64,000 bases of DNA from a virus. Taxonomy: Duplodnaviria; Caudoviricetes. Position numbers and translations under genes: made by a program. The notes under the pieces were generated by a model. It had not been told where the DNA came from. It did no database searches and saw only the letters and a program-made list of their open reading frames with translations. Every line of letters starts with the position of its first letter. Position 1 is the stretch's first letter. Positions 48,259 through 52,296 of the stretch are shown here, in pieces. The DNA is taken from the IMG/VR virus record IMGVR_UViG_3300010354_000080, positions 1,546 through 65,545 of that record, one strand, 5' to 3'.

Positions 48259-50172
48259 ATGTCCCAGCCACAAGTCCCCATCTGGATGTCCAGAGAAGCC
48301 ATCAGCACCCTGTCCAAGGGGTATCTGTATCAGGGGGAGACACCACGGGGGTTGTACGAGCGTGTAGCCAATCAGGCAGCCAAACTACTAAACTATCCTG
48401 AGATCTCCCAGGACATCTTCGAGATGCTGTGGAAGGGGTACCTCGGACTCGCCACTCCAGTGGCTAGTAATTTCGGAACCTCCCGTGGCTTGCCTATCAG
48501 CTGCTACTCTAATCACATCGCCGATTCGGTTCCTTCGATCTACTCCCACCTCAAGGAATCGGCCGCCCTCTCCCAGCATGGCGGTGGGGTTGGTACCTAC
48601 TTCGGGGATATCCGTCCTGCCGGAGCACCAATCTCCTCGGGTGGTAAGAGTACCGGAGTGGTGCCGTGGATGAGACAGTTTGACCAGTGCGCGGCGGTAG
48701 TCTCCCAGGGTGGTGTTAGGAGAGGTAGCTTCGCTCTTTACCTCCCCATCGACCACCCCGACCTCCCTGAGGTCCTACGCTCCAAGGACCACTCCCAGGG
48801 CGATCCACGTGATTTCATCGACAGCAATATCGCCGTTACGGTTACCGATGAGTGGGTGGAAAGTCTGCTCTCGGGTGATCGTGAGAAGCAGAAACTCTTC
48901 GGCGAGGTGCTCAAAGCGCGGCTTGTGTCCGGGTCTCCTTACATCGTGTTTGTAGACAATGCCAACAGAGCCAATCCTGAATGCTATACTCAGCGTGGGC
49001 TAAGCGTCAAGCTTAGCAACCTCTGCTCGGAAATCTTCCTCCACACTGACGAGAATCACACCTTCGTCTGTGTTCTCTCCTCGCTTAATCTATCGCGCTG
49101 GGAGGAGTGGAAGGACTGGACAGGCCCCGCAACTGGCAAAACCGCGCCGGAGCTGGCTGTGTACCTACTGGACGCGGTTGTTGAGGAGTTCTGCCATAAG
49201 GCCGATAGGATCACCTCGATGGGCAGAGCTGTTCGTTTTGCTCGCAAATCCCGGGCTCTTGGCCTGGGCACCATGGGCCTCCACGCTCTCTACCAGTCCA
49301 AACATCTCCCCTTCGCGTCCGACGGAGCACGTCAGCTCAACGCAGAAGTCCACAAGTTCATCAAGGAAAAAGCCATTAAAGCTTCGCGGGACATGGCCGC
49401 TACCTACGGCGAGCCAGAGTGGTGCCAGGGCACCGGCCTACGTCATACCCACCTCATGGCCATCGCCCCCACCAAGTCCAACTCCGTAATCTGCGGAGCT
49501 GGGAGCGAGGGCATCGAGCCCATCGACGCCAACTACTACGTTGCCAAACAGGCCAAGGGTACCTTCGTCAGGAAGAATAAGTACCTTGTTGATTACCTGG
49601 AGAAGATCGGCCGTAACACCGACGAGACGTGGGAATCTATTCTGGAGTTCAGGGGATCGGTGCAGCATCTTGACTTCCTGGATGCCGAGGCCAAAGACGT
49701 ATTTAAGACTGCTCGTGAAGTCGATCAGTTCGAGATTATCCGCCAGGCCTCAGACCGCCAGAAGTTCATCTGTCAGGGCCAGTCTATCAATCTCTTCGTC
49801 GATCCTGAGGCCACTCCAGAGTACCTCTTCAGGTTGCACCTCAGCGCCTGGAAGGGAGGACTCAAGTCCCTCTACTATCTTAAGAGCTCGTCATTGCTCG
49901 TTAAGAAGAAGAAACCAGGGGCGATCAAAGAGGCCAAAATTATTACCAAATCCGATTGCCCATACTGCTCCATGGCCAAATCACTGCTCCGTAGCCAAGG
50001 CTGGACCATCAACGATGTGGATAGAGCGGACGTTCCCAACTCCGAGTGGGTGTGGAAGACCGTGCCTCAGATCTGGCTTAACGGCCAGCATGTGGGAGGT
50101 TACACCAATCTCTCCGAGAAGCTTGGTCAGGGCGAGAAAACATACGGGGAGTGCGCGGCCTGCGAGGGTTAA
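48259..50172 (+). CDS. nrdA: ribonucleotide reductase class Ia alpha subunit with C-terminal glutaredoxin domain
   Basis: LPISC, SQGGVRRG, SNLCSEI, VCVLSS, AIAPT, QGQS, KSLYY; then Grx (CPYC..TVPQI..VGGY) and terminal CAACEG; TGATATAAT upstream. Confidence 0.95.
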   Translation: MSQPQVPIWMSREAISTLSKGYLYQGETPRGLYERVANQAAKLLNYPEISQDIFEMLWKGYLGLATPVASNFGTSRGLPISCYSNHIADSVPSIYSHLKESAALSQHGGGVGTYFGDIRPAGAPISSGGKSTGVVPWMRQFDQCAAVVSQGGVRRGSFALYLPIDHPDLPEVLRSKDHSQGDPRDFIDSNIAVTVTDEWVESLLSGDREKQKLFGEVLKARLVSGSPYIVFVDNANRANPECYTQRGLSVKLSNLCSEIFLHTDENHTFVCVLSSLNLSRWEEWKDWTGPATGKTAPELAVYLLDAVVEEFCHKADRITSMGRAVRFARKSRALGLGTMGLHALYQSKHLPFASDGARQLNAEVHKFIKEKAIKASRDMAATYGEPEWCQGTGLRHTHLMAIAPTKSNSVICGAGSEGIEPIDANYYVAKQAKGTFVRKNKYLVDYLEKIGRNTDETWESILEFRGSVQHLDFLDAEAKDVFKTAREVDQFEIIRQASDRQKFICQGQSINLFVDPEATPEYLFRLHLSAWKGGLKSLYYLKSSSLLVKKKKPGAIKEAKIITKSDCPYCSMAKSLLRSQGWTINDVDRADVPNSEWVWKTVPQIWLNGQHVGGYTNLSEKLGQGEKTYGECAACEG

Positions 50173-50174
50173 AA

Positions 50175-50744
50175 ATGAAAAAATTTTTACATCACAAAAT
50201 ACCTCAGAGTAGAGGGGGTGGGAACGAAACATGGAATTTGATAGAATTAAACGCTTATGAGCATGCGTATGAGCATGCTCTGGATTTTGTTTTATTTAGT
50301 TCTTCTCCGTCTTTTGATTGCAGACAACCCGGATGGAAACTACTTCCAGAAGATCTTAAAGAAGCAGTTAGAAAAGAAATTTCTAACAGGATGAAAGGTA
50401 ACAAACTTGCTCAAGGGCGCGGAGAATCAAAAAGAGGGGCAAAAAATGGGATGTGGGGAAGGAAAGGCTCTCTTCATCCAGCTTTTGGTAGAAAAAGACC
50501 GCAAGAAGAACGTAATAGAATCTCTGAATCAAATAAGGGCCGCTTCTTTACAAAAGAGCATAGAAATAACATCTCTAAATCCAGAACTGGAACAAAAATG
50601 AGCGAAGAGTTCAAACTTAAAAGATCCAGAGATGCAACTGGCCGATTTTGGGTGACAGATTTAGAAGGATGTGGTAGAATGCTAAAGAAGGGAACTCCTC
50701 TACCTCCAGGATATACTCTGGGGAGACCTAAAAAATCGCAGTAA
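50175..50744 (+). mobile_element. free-standing HNH/NUMOD3 homing endonuclease
   Basis: HHKIPQSRGG..NLIELNAYEH..H; basic NUMOD3-like repeats; visibly AT-rich. Confidence 0.75.
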
Positions 50745-51230: not shown

Positions 51231-51413
51231 ATGTCACCCTTTCCCCGTCAGCGTCTCATCTCCAAAATCGACGATTCCGCTTGCAGAAATTGCGCTGGGC
51301 GGGGATTTCTAATCATAGAACGAAACCGTCCTGGCGGAATCGTATTACCCAACGAAATTATAGAATGCGGAGTCTGCGATGGTACCGGAAAACGTAAAAC
51401 AGATCAGGCCTGA
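51231..51413 (+). CDS. small DnaJ-type zinc-finger protein
   Basis: CRNCAGRG and CGVCDGTG (two CxxCxGxG motifs). Confidence 0.6.
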   Translation: MSPFPRQRLISKIDDSACRNCAGRGFLIIERNRPGGIVLPNEIIECGVCDGTGKRKTDQA

Positions 51414-51864
51414 GACCAGAGTACTTGTACTTAACGCCTCGTACGAACCCCTCCATATCACAAGCTGGAAGAGAGCTATCATCCTCCTGCTGAAGGAGAA
51501 GGCGCTTGTAGTCTCAGCCAAAGTCATTCGCCTAACCGAGTACATCCGGATTCCGTTCGCGAGGATCAATTCCGTCAAACCATCACGGGCTCTCATCTAT
51601 AAGAGAGACGGGCATAAGTGCCAGTACTGCGGAGCTACGAGAAGGCTAACTATCGACCACGTGGTTCCGAGGAGTCGTGGTGGCGGGGACACATGGGAGA
51701 ATATGGTGGTAGCCTGCTCATCATGTAATACAAAGAAGGGTGACACTCTTCTCGAGCAGACGGGGATGAAGTTGGCGAGAAAACCCTTCGCTCCAGCCAA
51801 CCGATTCTTGCTGAGTCTTATCGACTCCGACTCTCCCGAGTGGCTTCAGTACGCATTCGGTTAA
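51379..51864 (+). CDS. HNH endonuclease (McrA-like, cyanobacterial type)
   Basis: VLVLNASYEPL, RDGHKCQYCG, LTIDHVVPRSRGG..WENMVVACSSCN. Confidence 0.9.
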   Translation: MVPENVKQIRPETRVLVLNASYEPLHITSWKRAIILLLKEKALVVSAKVIRLTEYIRIPFARINSVKPSRALIYKRDGHKCQYCGATRRLTIDHVVPRSRGGGDTWENMVVACSSCNTKKGDTLLEQTGMKLARKPFAPANRFLLSLIDSDSPEWLQYAFG

Positions 51865-51866
51865 AG
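51859..51866 (+). promoter_or_regulatory. late promoter variant GGTTAAAG
   Basis: 8 nt upstream of the riboswitch 5' end. Confidence 0.55.
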
Positions 51867-51874
51867 ACACATAG

Positions 51875-51987
51875 ATCGTTCATCGGGGAAATATCTGTAC
51901 TTCTCCGACGGAAGTAGGCCGACTCGGAACGTAGTCGTTCATTCTCTATTCGGAAATAGAGAACGCAAAAGCCGACTGAAGGAACGC
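51875..51987 (+). ncRNA. tandem glutamine riboswitch (glnA-type RNA motif, two aptamers)
   Basis: Aptamer 1: ATCGTTCATC-stem-GACGGAAGTAG..GGAACG. Aptamer 2: TCGTTCAT-TCTCTATT/AATAGAGA-ACGCAAAAGCCGACTGAAGGAACGC. Both have P1 CGTTC/GAACG; lies upstream of a YRG peptide. Confidence 0.85.
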
Positions 51988-52020
51988 ACCAGTACCCTAA
52001 CAAGTAACGGAGCAAACCTA

Positions 52021-52164
52021 ATGTCCAAAGTAGTTTACCGCGGTGTTGAGTATGACACTGAAAAGCGTCTTCAGTACCAGCAACAGATGCAACAGCAACC
52101 ACAGCAGTATAATGAGATCTACCGTGGTGTGAAGTTTGTAAAGAAAGAGGGGGAGAAGGAATGA
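52021..52164 (+). CDS. DUF4278-like small protein (47 aa, Gln-rich; not in the ORF track)
   Basis: MSKVVYRGVEYDTEKRLQYQQQMQQQPQQYNEIYRGVKFVKKEGEKE; two YRGV motifs; GGAG SD. Confidence 0.85.
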   Translation: MSKVVYRGVEYDTEKRLQYQQQMQQQPQQYNEIYRGVKFVKKEGEKE

Positions 52165-52259
52165 GATCCATCAACGTCCTCCAGCTCATCAAGGAGCAGA
52201 AGCAAAAACAAGATAGGCGCCACAAAGCGTCCATCGCCCACCTGATTCAATCCAGGTAG
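52161..52259 (+). CDS. 32-aa basic micro-protein (not in the ORF track)
   Basis: MRSINVLQLIKEQKQKQDRRHKASIAHLIQSR; ATGA overlap with the upstream stop; purine-rich SD. Confidence 0.7.
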   Translation: MRSINVLQLIKEQKQKQDRRHKASIAHLIQSR

Positions 52260-52269
52260 ATTAAAGCTC

Positions 52270-52296
52270 GGAGGGGAGGAATCTTCCCTCCTTTTT
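52270..52296 (+). terminator. intrinsic terminator closing the riboswitch operon
   Basis: GGAGGGGAG-gaat-CTTCCCTCC followed by TTTTT. Confidence 0.8.

What the first reader, a model, noticed from the sequence alone, without database searches (positions are those of the whole stretch)
51859..52296. Self-contained nitrogen-sensing cassette: late promoter, tandem glutamine riboswitch, two micro-ORFs, terminator
Seen: GGTTAAAG, two CGTTC..GAACG aptamers, a 47-aa YRGV-containing ORF, a coupled 32-aa basic ORF and a terminator. Both ORFs are missing from the ORF track. Established: glutamine riboswitches in cyanobacteria and cyanophages precede DUF4278 genes and gifB, which encodes the glutamine synthetase inactivating factor IF17. 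Inference: the phage senses host glutamine late in infection and makes small proteins that may modulate host glutamine synthetase or nitrogen flux. The second peptide could be a split or minimal IF-like effector.
Basis: partly seen in the sequence, partly recalled or inferred. Interest (0 to 1): 0.75.

Follow-up and report, generated by a model that had tools for sequence, protein, structure and literature searches.

The report
Nested glutamine riboswitch with two micro-genes
A cyanophage carries a small portable unit in which a glutamine-sensing RNA, apparently one sensor folded inside another, controls two tiny genes copied from peptides that its cyanobacterial hosts also keep under glutamine control.

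Summary
The sequence features are real. Rfam finds a glutamine-I (glnA) aptamer at 51934-51990 (36.4 bits, cut-off 35) and a weaker copy at 51875-51933 (22.6 bits). A 47-aa YRG ORF follows, then a 32-aa ORF overlapping it by ATGA, then a strong terminator. Both ORFs are under purifying selection (dN/dS 0.04 and 0.11). The cassette recurs in over 70 cyanophage contigs with unrelated flanking genes.

- Covariation favours a nested fold over two side-by-side aptamers. The 5' half of unit 1 and the 3' half of unit 2 form one canonical aptamer. Nested-specific pairs hold in 181 of 181 cells, side-by-side-specific pairs in 53.6%.
- ORF2 shows no similarity to the IF7/IF17 core. It is homologous (hhalign 97%) to the N-terminal helix of picocyanobacterial peptides that sit directly behind glutamine-II riboswitches (8 of 8 host hits).
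- GGTTAAAG is a one-mismatch copy of an enriched GTTTAAAG motif, but such variants are no commoner than chance. "Late" timing is untested. The window lacks the NtcA-box-like site found in 49 of 50 loci examined and the -10 box found in 37 of them.

Glutamine binding and any action on glutamine synthetase remain inferred. This is a new variant of a known kind.

The parts
51859..51866 (+). GGTTAAAG, a one-mismatch copy of the enriched GTTTAAAG motif and a candidate phage promoter element. It overlaps the HNH stop codon and ends 10 nt before the aptamer.
   Evidence: The exact motif occurs 10 times against 1.52 expected. One-mismatch forms are at chance level. Its position matches that of the -10 box of relatives.
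51877..51881 (+). Outer P1, 5' strand (CGUUC)
   Evidence: Invariant in 29 of 29 aligned elements. In the nested fold it pairs with 51982-51986.
51883..51908 (+). P1a hairpin of unit 1 (outer aptamer)
   Evidence: pairs 2-5 are standard in 45/45, 45/45, 43/44 and 31/32 sequences, with 2 to 5 pair types each.
51909..51916 (+). Junction CGGAAGUA, carrying the AGUA strand of the loop-E motif. G51911 is the long-range partner of C51987.
   Evidence: Column 37 with column 113 is G:C in 17 and C:G in 12 of 29 unique elements; the pair holds in 62 of 62 loci.
51917..51925 (+). S1, 5' strand of the long P2 helix (GGCCGACUC)
   Evidence: It pairs with 51969-51977, with compensatory changes at three positions across relatives.
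51926..51941 (+). Inner hairpin GGAACG-UAGU-CGUUCA, made of the 3' strand of unit 1 and the 5' strand of unit 2
   Evidence: The sequences are invariant, so covariation cannot test this helix.
51942..51963 (+). P1a hairpin of unit 2 (inner domain)
   Evidence: 98.4% of cells are paired and 4 of 7 pairs show changes on both sides.
51964..51977 (+). Inner junction CGCAAA and S2, the 3' strand of the long P2 helix (AAGCCGACU)
51978..51987 (+). GAA (second loop-E strand), the outer P1 3' strand GGAACG, and the long-range partner C51987
51987..52020 (+). Expression platform. The tail GCACC can pair weakly with the Shine-Dalgarno GGAG(C) at 52009-52013.
   Evidence: -6.6 kcal/mol, z -0.25; window -1.6 kcal/mol. 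SD is at least 3/4 paired in 42 of 54 unique platforms against 54% in shuffled controls. The evidence is weak for the window itself.
52021..52164 (+). ORF1, 47 aa, with two YRGV motifs and a Gln-rich linker; DUF4278-like
   Evidence: dN/dS is 0.043 in frame against 1.95 and 5.98 off frame.
52147..52160 (+). Shine-Dalgarno-like GAGGGGGAGAAGGA for ORF2, lying inside the 3' end of ORF1
   Evidence: An SD-like word lies before the ORF2 start in 71 of 72 loci.
52161..52259 (+). ORF2, 32 aa, a basic helix-type micro-protein. Its start overlaps the ORF1 stop (ATGA).
   Evidence: dN/dS is 0.113 against 1.48 and 3.25 off frame. hhalign to the host helix module gives 97.2%, E 3.6e-11.
52270..52296 (+). 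Intrinsic terminator: 9-bp stem with 6 G-C pairs, then TTTTT

Best explanation
This is a portable two-gene micro-operon under a glutamine-I (glnA-type) riboswitch, carried here by a TIM5-like cyanophage.

Shown:
- The 111-nt leader (51877-51987) contains two aptamer-like units.
- Across relatives the covarying pairs are those of a nested fold. CGUUC of unit 1 pairs with GAACG of unit 2 as the outer P1.
- The junction of unit 1 (CGGAAGUA) and the GAA of unit 2 supply the two loop-E strands.
- G51911 pairs with C51987 as the long-range closing pair.
- 51917-51925 pairs with 51969-51977 as a long P2 helix. This helix encloses an inner domain made of the GGAACG-loop-CGUUCA hairpin, a second P1a hairpin and CGCAAA.
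- Both ORFs are conserved coding genes, and ORF2 has its own SD inside the end of ORF1.
- ORF2 is homologous to the N-terminal helix of host peptides that lie directly behind glutamine-II riboswitches.
- ORF1 has the two-YRG layout of the other host peptide class.

Inferred:
- Glutamine binding closes the outer P1 and the long-range pair. This draws the tail away from the ribosome-binding site and turns on translation of ORF1 and, through coupling, ORF2.
- The terminator ends the unit.
- The phage thereby makes its own copies of two host nitrogen-status peptides when host glutamine is high. Their target, possibly glutamine synthetase, is unknown.
- Transcription in this window comes either from the GGTTAAAG site or by read-through from the HNH gene.
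For: RNA family:
- RF01739 scores 36.4 bits (cut-off 35) and 22.6 bits.
- Infernal aligns relative L023 as one 99-nt aptamer with a 52-nt insert in P2, 37.6 bits.
- The S-CREM1 paper tabulates a single 99-nt glnA hit (PMC9964418, passages).

Nested fold:
- The long-range pair between the unit 1 junction and the unit 2 tail is Watson-Crick in 62 of 62 loci (G:C 44, C:G 18). The side-by-side partners pair in 18 of 62.
- All 10 distinct S1/S2 combinations in 62 loci keep the cross helix, and neither strand folds alone (0.0 kcal/mol).
- On 29 unique elements the nested-specific pairs are standard in 181 of 181 cells. Covariation score is 0.334 against 0.121 +/- 0.021, with 0 of 500 shuffles as high, and slid controls reach at most 42%.
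- Side-by-side-specific pairs are standard in 53.6% of cells, with 170 of 500 shuffles as high.

Coding:
- dN/dS is 0.043 for ORF1 and 0.113 for ORF2 in frame, and above 1 in the other frames.
- Of 81 loci with ORF1 (80 of L001-L084 plus the window), 73 have a helix-type ORF2 (62 unique sequences) and 4 a second YRG-type ORF in its place; where printed, the overlap is 4 nt in all but two loci.

ORF2 relatives:
- 56 cluster representatives at E <= 1e-3 in 1.84 billion proteins, mostly 27-44 aa.
- 8 of 401 cyanobacterial genomes have a match.
- All 8 matches lie just downstream of an RF01704 riboswitch scoring 37.7-54.6 bits.
- hhalign gives 97.2%, E 3.6e-11. My own run gave score 45.2 against a shuffle mean of 7.7 and maximum of 15.4, 0 of 200 as high.
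- Fusions exist in both orders.

Other:
- ON-switch behaviour of both riboswitch classes is taken from passages of Klahn 2018 and Huang 2019 (PMC6698751).
- Contigs of three other studies bridge the HNH 3' end into the leader.
Against: - No ligand-binding, structure-probing or expression data exist for this element, and no RNA runs were available.
- P1 sequences are invariant, so the choice between a-d/b-c and a-b/c-d pairing rests on P2 and the long-range pair alone.
- Related sequences are not independent. The G:C to C:G swap may reflect few events, although it occurs on three different P2 backgrounds.
- In the window the inner long-range pair is broken (C51966 against U51932). It is Watson-Crick in 55 of 62 loci.
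- The window's anti-SD helix is weak.
- ORF1 is below the DUF4278 cut-off. hhalign to host YRG peptides aligns only 9 residues, probability 9.4%.
- The window is the only one of 50 loci without the upstream GTA-N8-TAC site, and it also lacks the -10 box that 37 of them have, so its transcription signal is unknown.
- I could not read Ames & Breaker 2011 or Ren et al. 2015, which may already describe such arrangements.
Confidence: 0.6

Rival explanations
1. These are two independent glutamine-I riboswitches placed side by side, giving a steeper (pseudo-cooperative) response. This is how glutamine doublets are classed in the literature.
For: - Two separate RF01739 matches are found in the window.
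- Sherlock et al. 2022 list 157 glutamine doublets as pseudo-cooperative (PMC9481103, passages).
Against: - Only 3-4 nt separate the units, so there is no expression platform between them.
- Each unit alone lacks one loop-E strand.
- Side-by-side-specific pairs are standard in 53.6% of cells, at shuffle level, against 100% for nested-specific pairs.
- Long-range partners fit side by side in 18 of 62 loci against 62 of 62 nested.
Confidence: 0.15
2. In this particular phage the leader is a decaying relic. After homing-endonuclease insertion displaced the promoter, the two genes are expressed by read-through, or not at all, without glutamine control.
For: - The window is the only one of 50 loci without the GTA-N8-TAC site, and it also lacks the -10 box that 37 of them have.
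- The HNH ORF abuts the leader.
- The inner long-range pair is mismatched.
- The anti-SD helix is weak.
Against: - Every conserved position of the outer aptamer, the long P2 helix and the outer long-range pair is intact in the window.
- Both ORFs, both SDs and the terminator are intact.
- The same HNH-leader junction occurs in contigs of three other studies, so it persists in nature.
Confidence: 0.15
3. ORF2 is a minimal IF7-like inactivating factor that binds glutamine synthetase through its basic helix.
For: - By my count from the sequence, ORF2 has eight Lys/Arg against two Asp/Glu.
- IF7 and IF17 act through electrostatic contacts of conserved arginines (review PMC6316151, passage).
- In hosts, ORF2-like helices are glutamine-riboswitch controlled, like IF17.
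Against: - hhalign of the ORF2 profile against the IF7/IF17 core of 13 cyanobacterial proteins gives probability 0.13% and score 6.46. 134 of 200 column shuffles score at least as high.
- The host helix module also shows no similarity to that core (0.32%).
- No family hit above threshold was found in Pfam or NCBIfam.
Confidence: 0.08

Closest known systems
Glutamine-I (glnA RNA, RF01739) riboswitch of cyanobacterial gifB leaders
   Same: - Conserved CGUUCA, CGGAAGUA and GAAGGAACGC blocks, a P1a hairpin and a long-range closing pair.
- Placement before a DUF4278-type gene.
- A likely translational ON switch.
   Different: - Here the canonical halves are 60 nt apart and enclose a second aptamer-like domain.
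- The controlled unit is two micro-ORFs rather than IF17.
glnA riboswitch cassettes of Kyanoviridae cyanophages: S-CREM1 (annotated), S-PM2 p190/p191, S-SRM01, DSL-LC02
   Same: Same leader, same ORF1 and ORF2 families, and often a terminator.
   Different: - The window is a TIM5-like phage with unrelated flanking genes.
- It has no NtcA-box-like site or sigma-70-type promoter; an HNH gene and GGTTAAAG lie there instead.
- S-CREM1 has ORF1 and ORF2 fused into one 48-aa protein.
Glutamine-II (Downstream-peptide, RF01704) riboswitch peptides of marine picocyanobacteria
   Same: - ORF2 matches their N-terminal helix.
- ORF1 shares the two-YRG layout of the 33-aa class.
- Both are glutamine-riboswitch controlled.
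   Different: - The hosts use the pseudoknot class, with one riboswitch per peptide gene.
- Fused host forms have the order helix then YRG.
- The phage uses the three-way-junction class, one leader for both genes, and the order YRG then helix.
IF7/IF17 glutamine synthetase inactivating factors
   Same: They are small basic proteins made when glutamine is high, and IF17 carries DUF4278.
   Different: Neither phage ORF contains the C-terminal arginine-bearing core.

Membership tests
Glutamine-I riboswitch (RF01739) | Covariance-model score at or above the gathering cut-off | tested here: met
   36.4 bits against 35 at 51934-51990. The upstream unit alone scores 22.6 bits, below the cut-off.
Glutamine-I riboswitch (RF01739) | Three-way junction helices supported by covariation | tested here: met
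   P1a of unit 1, P1a of unit 2 and the long P2 helix all covary. P1 is invariant, so it is uninformative.
Glutamine-I riboswitch (RF01739) | Both strands of the loop-E motif at the junction. That the family has a loop-E motif is from Huang 2019 passages; the AGUA/GAA wording is recalled. | tested here: met
   Met only in the nested reading. AGUA is at 51913-51916 and GAA at 51978-51980. Unit 1 has C in place of GAA, and unit 2 has CAAA in place of AGUA.
Glutamine-I riboswitch (RF01739) | Long-range closing base pair next to P1 | tested here: met
   G51911 with C51987. The pair is Watson-Crick in 62 of 62 loci, with a G:C to C:G swap.
Glutamine-I riboswitch (RF01739) | Selective binding of L-glutamine | not testable with these tools
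   Needs in-line probing or calorimetry.
Tandem pseudo-cooperative riboswitches | Each aptamer folds on its own and has its own expression platform | tested here: not met
   A 3-4 nt linker separates the units. Side-by-side-specific pairs are standard in 53.6% of cells, at shuffle level.
DUF4278 (PF14105) | Score at or above Pfam's gathering cut-off | tested here: not met
   ORF1 scores 19.3 bits against 25.3, E 0.0015, matching profile positions 3-32 of 57. Relatives score 20-21 bits.
DUF4278 (PF14105) | Repeated YRG-x-x-Y motif | tested here: inconclusive
   Two motifs are present. Profile comparison with host YRG peptides aligns only 9 residues, probability 9.4%.
IF7/IF17 inactivating factors | C-terminal core with three conserved arginines needed for glutamine synthetase binding (review passage) | tested here: not met
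   hhalign of ORF2 against the core gives 0.13%, with 134 of 200 shuffles as high.
IF7/IF17 inactivating factors | Inhibition of glutamine synthetase | not testable with these tools
   Needs an enzyme assay or a pull-down.
Host helix-type peptides behind glutamine-II riboswitches (no curated family) | Profile similarity to the MN-L--I+ ... +L--AQL helix | tested here: met
   hhalign gives 97.2%, E 3.6e-11 over 29 columns; 0 of 200 shuffles reach the observed score.
Host helix-type peptides behind glutamine-II riboswitches (no curated family) | Gene lies directly behind a glutamine riboswitch | tested here: met
   8 of 8 host hits lie behind RF01704. In the phage, ORF2 lies in an operon behind RF01739.
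GTTTAAAG motif sites of this phage (candidate promoter) | Exact octamer | tested here: not met
   The site has one mismatch (GGTTAAAG), and such variants occur at chance level.
Intrinsic terminator | G+C-rich stem-loop followed by a U run | tested here: met

The most novel reading that the evidence does not exclude
The leader is a two-site glutamine sensor built as an aptamer within an aptamer. The outer domain is a canonical glutamine-I aptamer. Its P2 arm carries a circularly permuted second binding core: a P1-like helix closed by a 3-nt loop whose first base makes the long-range pair with CGC of the inner junction. That pair is Watson-Crick in 55 of 62 loci. The two sites would act cooperatively on a single expression platform. 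The two peptides would be the separated halves of the host helix-YRG protein and would act together on host nitrogen assimilation.
Probability: 0.2. Interest if true: 0.8.

Novelty: new variant of a known kind. Interest (0 to 1): 0.58.

Why it matters
Glutamine riboswitches before DUF4278 genes in cyanobacteria and cyanophages are established, so the core of the finding is not new. Two things go beyond what I could find in print.

First, glutamine doublets are classed as independent side-by-side switches (review passages; the word 'nested' does not occur in that text). Here, comparative data across 62 loci point to one aptamer folded around another. If that holds, part of the 157 reported doublets may need re-reading, and the element would offer a natural compact design for a steeper or two-site amino-acid sensor.

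Second, the unannotated 32-aa gene links phage and host. It identifies a helix-type class of glutamine-riboswitch-controlled micro-proteins in picocyanobacteria, alongside the YRG class. It also shows that phages keep one of each class in a single operon. The function of these host 'IF17-like' peptides is an open question (Klahn 2018 passages). A phage operon holding both modules, with fused forms in both orders, gives a concrete pair to test together against glutamine synthetase.

I searched for prior descriptions. Ames & Breaker 2011 and the supplements of Klahn 2018 and of the S-CREM1 paper could not be read and may bear on both points.

Tried and rejected
- Complex prediction of ORF1 with ORF2, both given as alignments, returned no verdict (score 0.00). 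I draw no conclusion from it.
- The look-up of sequencing runs listed no RNA holder, so there are no expression data.
- A joint 50957->52738 in one contig of X13 might mean a variant without the whole block. It has a 46-nt side at 85% likeness, so I did not use it.
- The ORF2 profile against PDB sequences gave only chance-level hits, E >= 0.71.
- NCBIfam returned nothing relevant for ORF1, ORF2 or their relatives.
- The ESM Atlas returned no usable hit for ORF2.
- hhalign of ORF2 against a second C-terminal type of riboswitch-linked cyanobacterial proteins gave 0.75%, with 13 of 200 shuffles as high. I rejected it.
- A scan of viral contigs with P0068 found no relative.
- The ORF2 profile in three cyanobacterial genomes reached through loci gave no match. 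The wider sample of 401 genomes then gave 8 matches.
- The whole-leader MFE fold is not better than shuffles (z -0.46), and single-sequence folding did not recover either architecture cleanly.
- TGTA-N8-TACA has no copy near the cassette in the window.
- PHROG searches of the genes that follow GTTTAAAG sites gave one virion structural protein, a PhoH-like protein and otherwise no family, so 'late' could not be judged.
- Papers not held: Ames & Breaker 2011 and Ren et al. 2015. Supplements are closed; Klahn 2018 Figure S1 and Table S1 and S-CREM1 Table S7 may bear on the peptide classes and on phage riboswitch lists.
Full report
WHAT IS THERE.

The window is a fragment of a cyanophage: an IMG/VR record of 65,545 nt, estimated 41% complete. 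Its flap-endonuclease/polymerase-like protein is 57% identical to those of cyanophages S-TIM5, S-TIM54, S-TIM61 and S-TIM66. The finding lies in a nucleotide-metabolism region that holds ribonucleotide reductase subunits, a thymidylate-synthase homologue, a C5 methylase and two homing-type endonuclease genes.

An HNH endonuclease ORF ends at 51864. The octamer GGTTAAAG (51859-51866) spans its stop codon. Ten bases further on, at 51877, the structured leader starts.

Rfam's glutamine-I model (RF01739) scores 36.4 bits, just over its cut-off of 35, at 51934-51990. In a local scan it scores 22.6 bits at 51875-51933. ORF1 (52021-52164, 47 aa) has a GGAG 8 nt before its ATG. ORF2 (52161-52259, 32 aa) starts inside the stop of ORF1 (ATGA) and has a purine-rich SD within the last codons of ORF1. 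A 9-bp G+C-rich hairpin with a T run follows at 52270-52296 and folds at -19 kcal/mol, z -2.8.

IS IT MORE THAN CHANCE.

Of these, 398 encode a relative and the best 80 were kept. Four isolated Kyanoviridae phages also carry the unit: DSL-LC02, S-CREM1, S-PM2 and S-SRM01.

- Of the 84 loci, 80 yielded ORF1. With the window that makes 81.
- 77 of the 81 have a second ORF overlapping the end of ORF1.
- 73 of these are of the helix type (62 unique sequences), and 4 are a second YRG-type ORF.
- Pooled Nei-Gojobori dN/dS is 0.043 for ORF1 (70 unique sequences, 2415 pairs) and 0.113 for ORF2 (53 unique sequences of the commonest type, 1378 pairs).
- The same DNA read in the other two frames gives 1.5 to 6.0. 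Both are therefore real genes.
- An SD-like word precedes ORF2 in 71 of 72 loci, and a terminator-like site follows it in 41 of 72.
- None of the five flanking ORFs of the window has a relative within 1.5 kb of the cassette in any of the 84 loci. ORF1 is found in 82 and ORF2 in 64.

THE PROMOTER CLAIM.

GGTTAAAG itself occurs twice in the window against 1.84 expected. An earlier first-reader note pointed to GTTTAAAG, and I tested it.

- The exact octamer occurs 10 times against 1.52 expected, and 0 of 100 shuffles reach 10. For 9 of the 10, an ORF of at least 40 codons on the same strand starts within 127 nt. It is a real signal of some kind.
- One-mismatch forms are not enriched: 53 matches including the 10 exact, against 43.4 expected. 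The copy at 51859 carries no statistical weight of its own.
- In its favour, its 3' flank (ACACATAGA) resembles those of exact sites.
- It also sits where relatives have their -10 box.
- Of the 50 loci examined (49 relatives and the window) with at least 90 nt upstream, 37 have TA[TC]AAT 5-10 nt before CGTTCA. 49 have a GTA-N8-TAC palindrome, 42 of them 58-60 nt before CGTTCA. That consensus is recalled as the NtcA box; its function was not tested.
- The window is the single locus with neither.

Nothing tested here bears on 'late'. The genes that follow the motif include one virion structural protein gene, a PhoH-like gene and several without a family. Contigs from three other studies run from the HNH gene into the leader, so the arrangement is stable in nature.

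THE RNA: NESTED, NOT SIDE BY SIDE.

Each unit alone is half-canonical. Unit 1 keeps CGGAAGUA but has a single C where the family has GAA before GGAACG. Unit 2 has CGCAAA in place of CGGAAGUA but keeps GAAGGAACGC. [quoted passage not shown] 2019, passages).

If the 5' strand of unit 1 pairs with the 3' strand of unit 2, one complete canonical aptamer results. I tested the pairs that differ between the two architectures.

(a) The third base of the unit 1 junction and the base after the unit 2 GGAACG form a Watson-Crick pair in 62 of 62 parsed loci: G:C in 44 and C:G in 18. By my reading of the lists, the C:G form occurs on three different P2 sequence backgrounds. The side-by-side partners pair in only 18 of 62 for each unit.

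(b) Segment S1 (between AAGUA and GGAACG of unit 1) and segment S2 (between ACGCAA and GAAGG of unit 2) pair antiparallel in all 10 distinct combinations seen in 62 loci.
- Compensating changes include U:A to G:C, A:U to C:G or G:C, and G:C to A:U through G:U.
- One shortened variant forms a perfect 5-bp helix.
- Neither segment forms a hairpin alone (0.0 kcal/mol).

(c) On an alignment of 29 unique compact elements, the seven nested-specific pairs are standard in 181 of 181 cells.
- Three pairs change on both sides (29 cells).
- Covariation score is 0.334 against 0.121 +/- 0.021 in shuffles, with 0 of 500 as high.
- Slid controls reach at most 42% paired.
- The six side-by-side-specific pairs are standard in 53.6% of cells against a shuffle mean of 52.7%, with 170 of 500 as high.

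(d) Infernal itself aligns relative L023 as one 99-nt aptamer with a 52-nt insertion in P2, at 37.6 bits. The S-CREM1 paper lists one 99-nt glnA hit.

The two P1a hairpins are each well supported. P1 is invariant and cannot discriminate between the folds.

The inner domain keeps GGAACG, CGUUCA and CGC. In 55 of 62 loci it also keeps a Watson-Crick pair between the C of CGC and the first loop base after GGAACG. This is the geometry of a circularly permuted binding core. In the window this pair is C against U. Whether the inner domain binds glutamine is open.

Caveats apply. The sequences are related, so counts are not independent events, and the structure was derived from these same sequences.

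EXPRESSION PLATFORM.

In the commonest relatives the long-range C is the first base of CUCUUUA, which pairs with UAAGGAG, the SD. This matches the model given for gifB, in which the base after the aptamer and its neighbours mask the ribosome-binding site until glutamine binds (Klahn 2018, passage).

Across 54 unique platforms the SD is at least three-quarters paired in the MFE of 42, against 54% when the upstream part is shuffled. In the window the equivalent helix (GCACC with GGAGC, one A-A mismatch) is weak. A glutamine-ON translational switch is therefore an inference by analogy here.

THE TWO PROTEINS.

ORF1 matches DUF4278 only below threshold: 19.3 bits against 25.3. It matches PHROG 5049 at E 1.6e-12.

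ORF2 has no Pfam or NCBIfam family.

- Its profile finds 56 cluster representatives at E <= 1e-3 among 1.84 billion proteins. Nearly all are 27-44 aa.
- Two of the longer ones carry the helix in front of a YRG motif.
- S-CREM1 and 24 relatives carry YRG followed by the helix in a single protein, 48-49 aa in nearly all and at most 68 aa.
- In a sample of 401 cyanobacterial genomes the profile hits 8, sized 1.7-3.7 Mb.
- The hit ORFs begin MN-L--I(R/K) and are either helix-only peptides or a helix followed by AYRGVAY.
- All 8 lie directly behind a glutamine-II riboswitch scoring 37.7-54.6 bits.
- In five of these genomes, 15 glutamine-II riboswitches precede 7 ORFs with the helix, 6 YRG peptides without it, among them three of 33 aa with two YRG motifs, and 2 others.
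- Profile-profile comparison of phage ORF2 with the host helix gives 97.2%, E 3.6e-11. My own run with 200 column shuffles gave 45.2 against a maximum of 15.4.
- ORF2 against the arginine-bearing core of 13 IF17/IF7-type proteins taken from cyanobacterial glnA-riboswitch loci scores at shuffle level.

So ORF2 is not IF7-like by sequence. It belongs to a second class of host glutamine-riboswitch peptides. The phage operon holds one member of each class.

Klahn et al. state that the host peptides lack the IF17 C-terminal part needed for glutamine synthetase binding and that their function is unproven. A role in glutamine synthetase control therefore remains a hypothesis for the phage proteins too.

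VERDICT.

The late promoter and the IF-like second peptide are unsupported.

The known part is ordinary, since glutamine riboswitches before DUF4278 genes in cyanophages are established. Two parts appear new after five literature searches, with two key papers and all supplements unread. These are the nested architecture and the identity of ORF2 as a homologue of host helix-type riboswitch peptides. I class the finding as a new variant of a known kind, interest 0.58.

Noticed in passing
L001 1360-1533 (DSL-LC02), L004 1360-1533 (S-SRM01) and 17 further loci: In 19 of 60 loci with two full units, the inner P1a hairpin is replaced by about 150 nt that encode a conserved ~50-aa ORF. Its ATG lies in the 5' strand of the hairpin (CGTTCATCTATGG...). 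Its TGA stop is the UGA of ..GACUGAAGGAACG. A protein gene therefore sits entirely inside the riboswitch. It is annotated as hypothetical in both isolates, and PHROGs gives no family.
   Followed up: partly
Relatives, 38-61 nt upstream of the first CGTTCA (e.g. L011 about 1300-1370): Among 50 loci examined (49 relatives and the window), 49 have a GTA-N8-TAC palindrome (NtcA-box-like; consensus recalled) at a nearly fixed distance, and 37 have a TA[TC]AAT box. Several of the sequences printed also show a TTGCAT/TTGACT -35-like hexamer. This suggests dual control by NtcA and glutamine. The window is the only locus without any of this.
   Followed up: partly
window 2897, 10044, 19652(-), 20539(-), 20915(-), 21619, 43903, 45015, 54118, 63692: The exact octamer GTTTAAAG occurs 10 times against 1.52 expected. 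It is usually followed by TA/AC-rich sequence and, in seven of the ten cases, by a start codon 6-34 nt downstream. It is a candidate phage-specific promoter or processing signal.
   Followed up: partly
window 50151-50744: A homing-endonuclease-like ORF (PHROG 655) is skipped in contigs of two other studies: joints 50170->50764 and 50170->50767. This is a presence/absence polymorphism typical of a mobile endonuclease gene, next to the ribonucleotide reductase large-subunit gene.
   Followed up: no
L017, L018, L031, L075, about 1632-1795: In four relatives the place of ORF2 is taken by a 53-aa second YRG-type ORF, with the same 4-nt overlap.
   Followed up: no
window 51231-51413: A 60-aa CxxC zinc-ribbon ORF overlapping the HNH start matches PHROG 6060, 'anti-termination protein Q-like' (E 9.8e-7), and weakly the DnaJ CXXCXGXG domain.
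   Followed up: no
window 51886-52073: In four metagenomes, summed contig depth over the leader and the start of ORF1 is 10 to more than 100 times that of the flanks, for example 4506 against about 17 in X6. Many different phage lineages in those samples therefore share this element.
   Followed up: no
window 52021-52259: PHROG 545 (55 positions) matches ORF2 at profile positions 2-24 and the YRG start of ORF1 at positions 25-37. This is the helix-then-YRG order seen in host proteins, so a phage family with that fused order already exists in PHROGs.
   Followed up: no
window 52072-52110: The linker of ORF1 between the two YRG motifs is rich in glutamine (QYQQQMQQQPQQY), and this is conserved in relatives. 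A glutamine-rich peptide under a glutamine sensor is curious. I did not test it.
   Followed up: no
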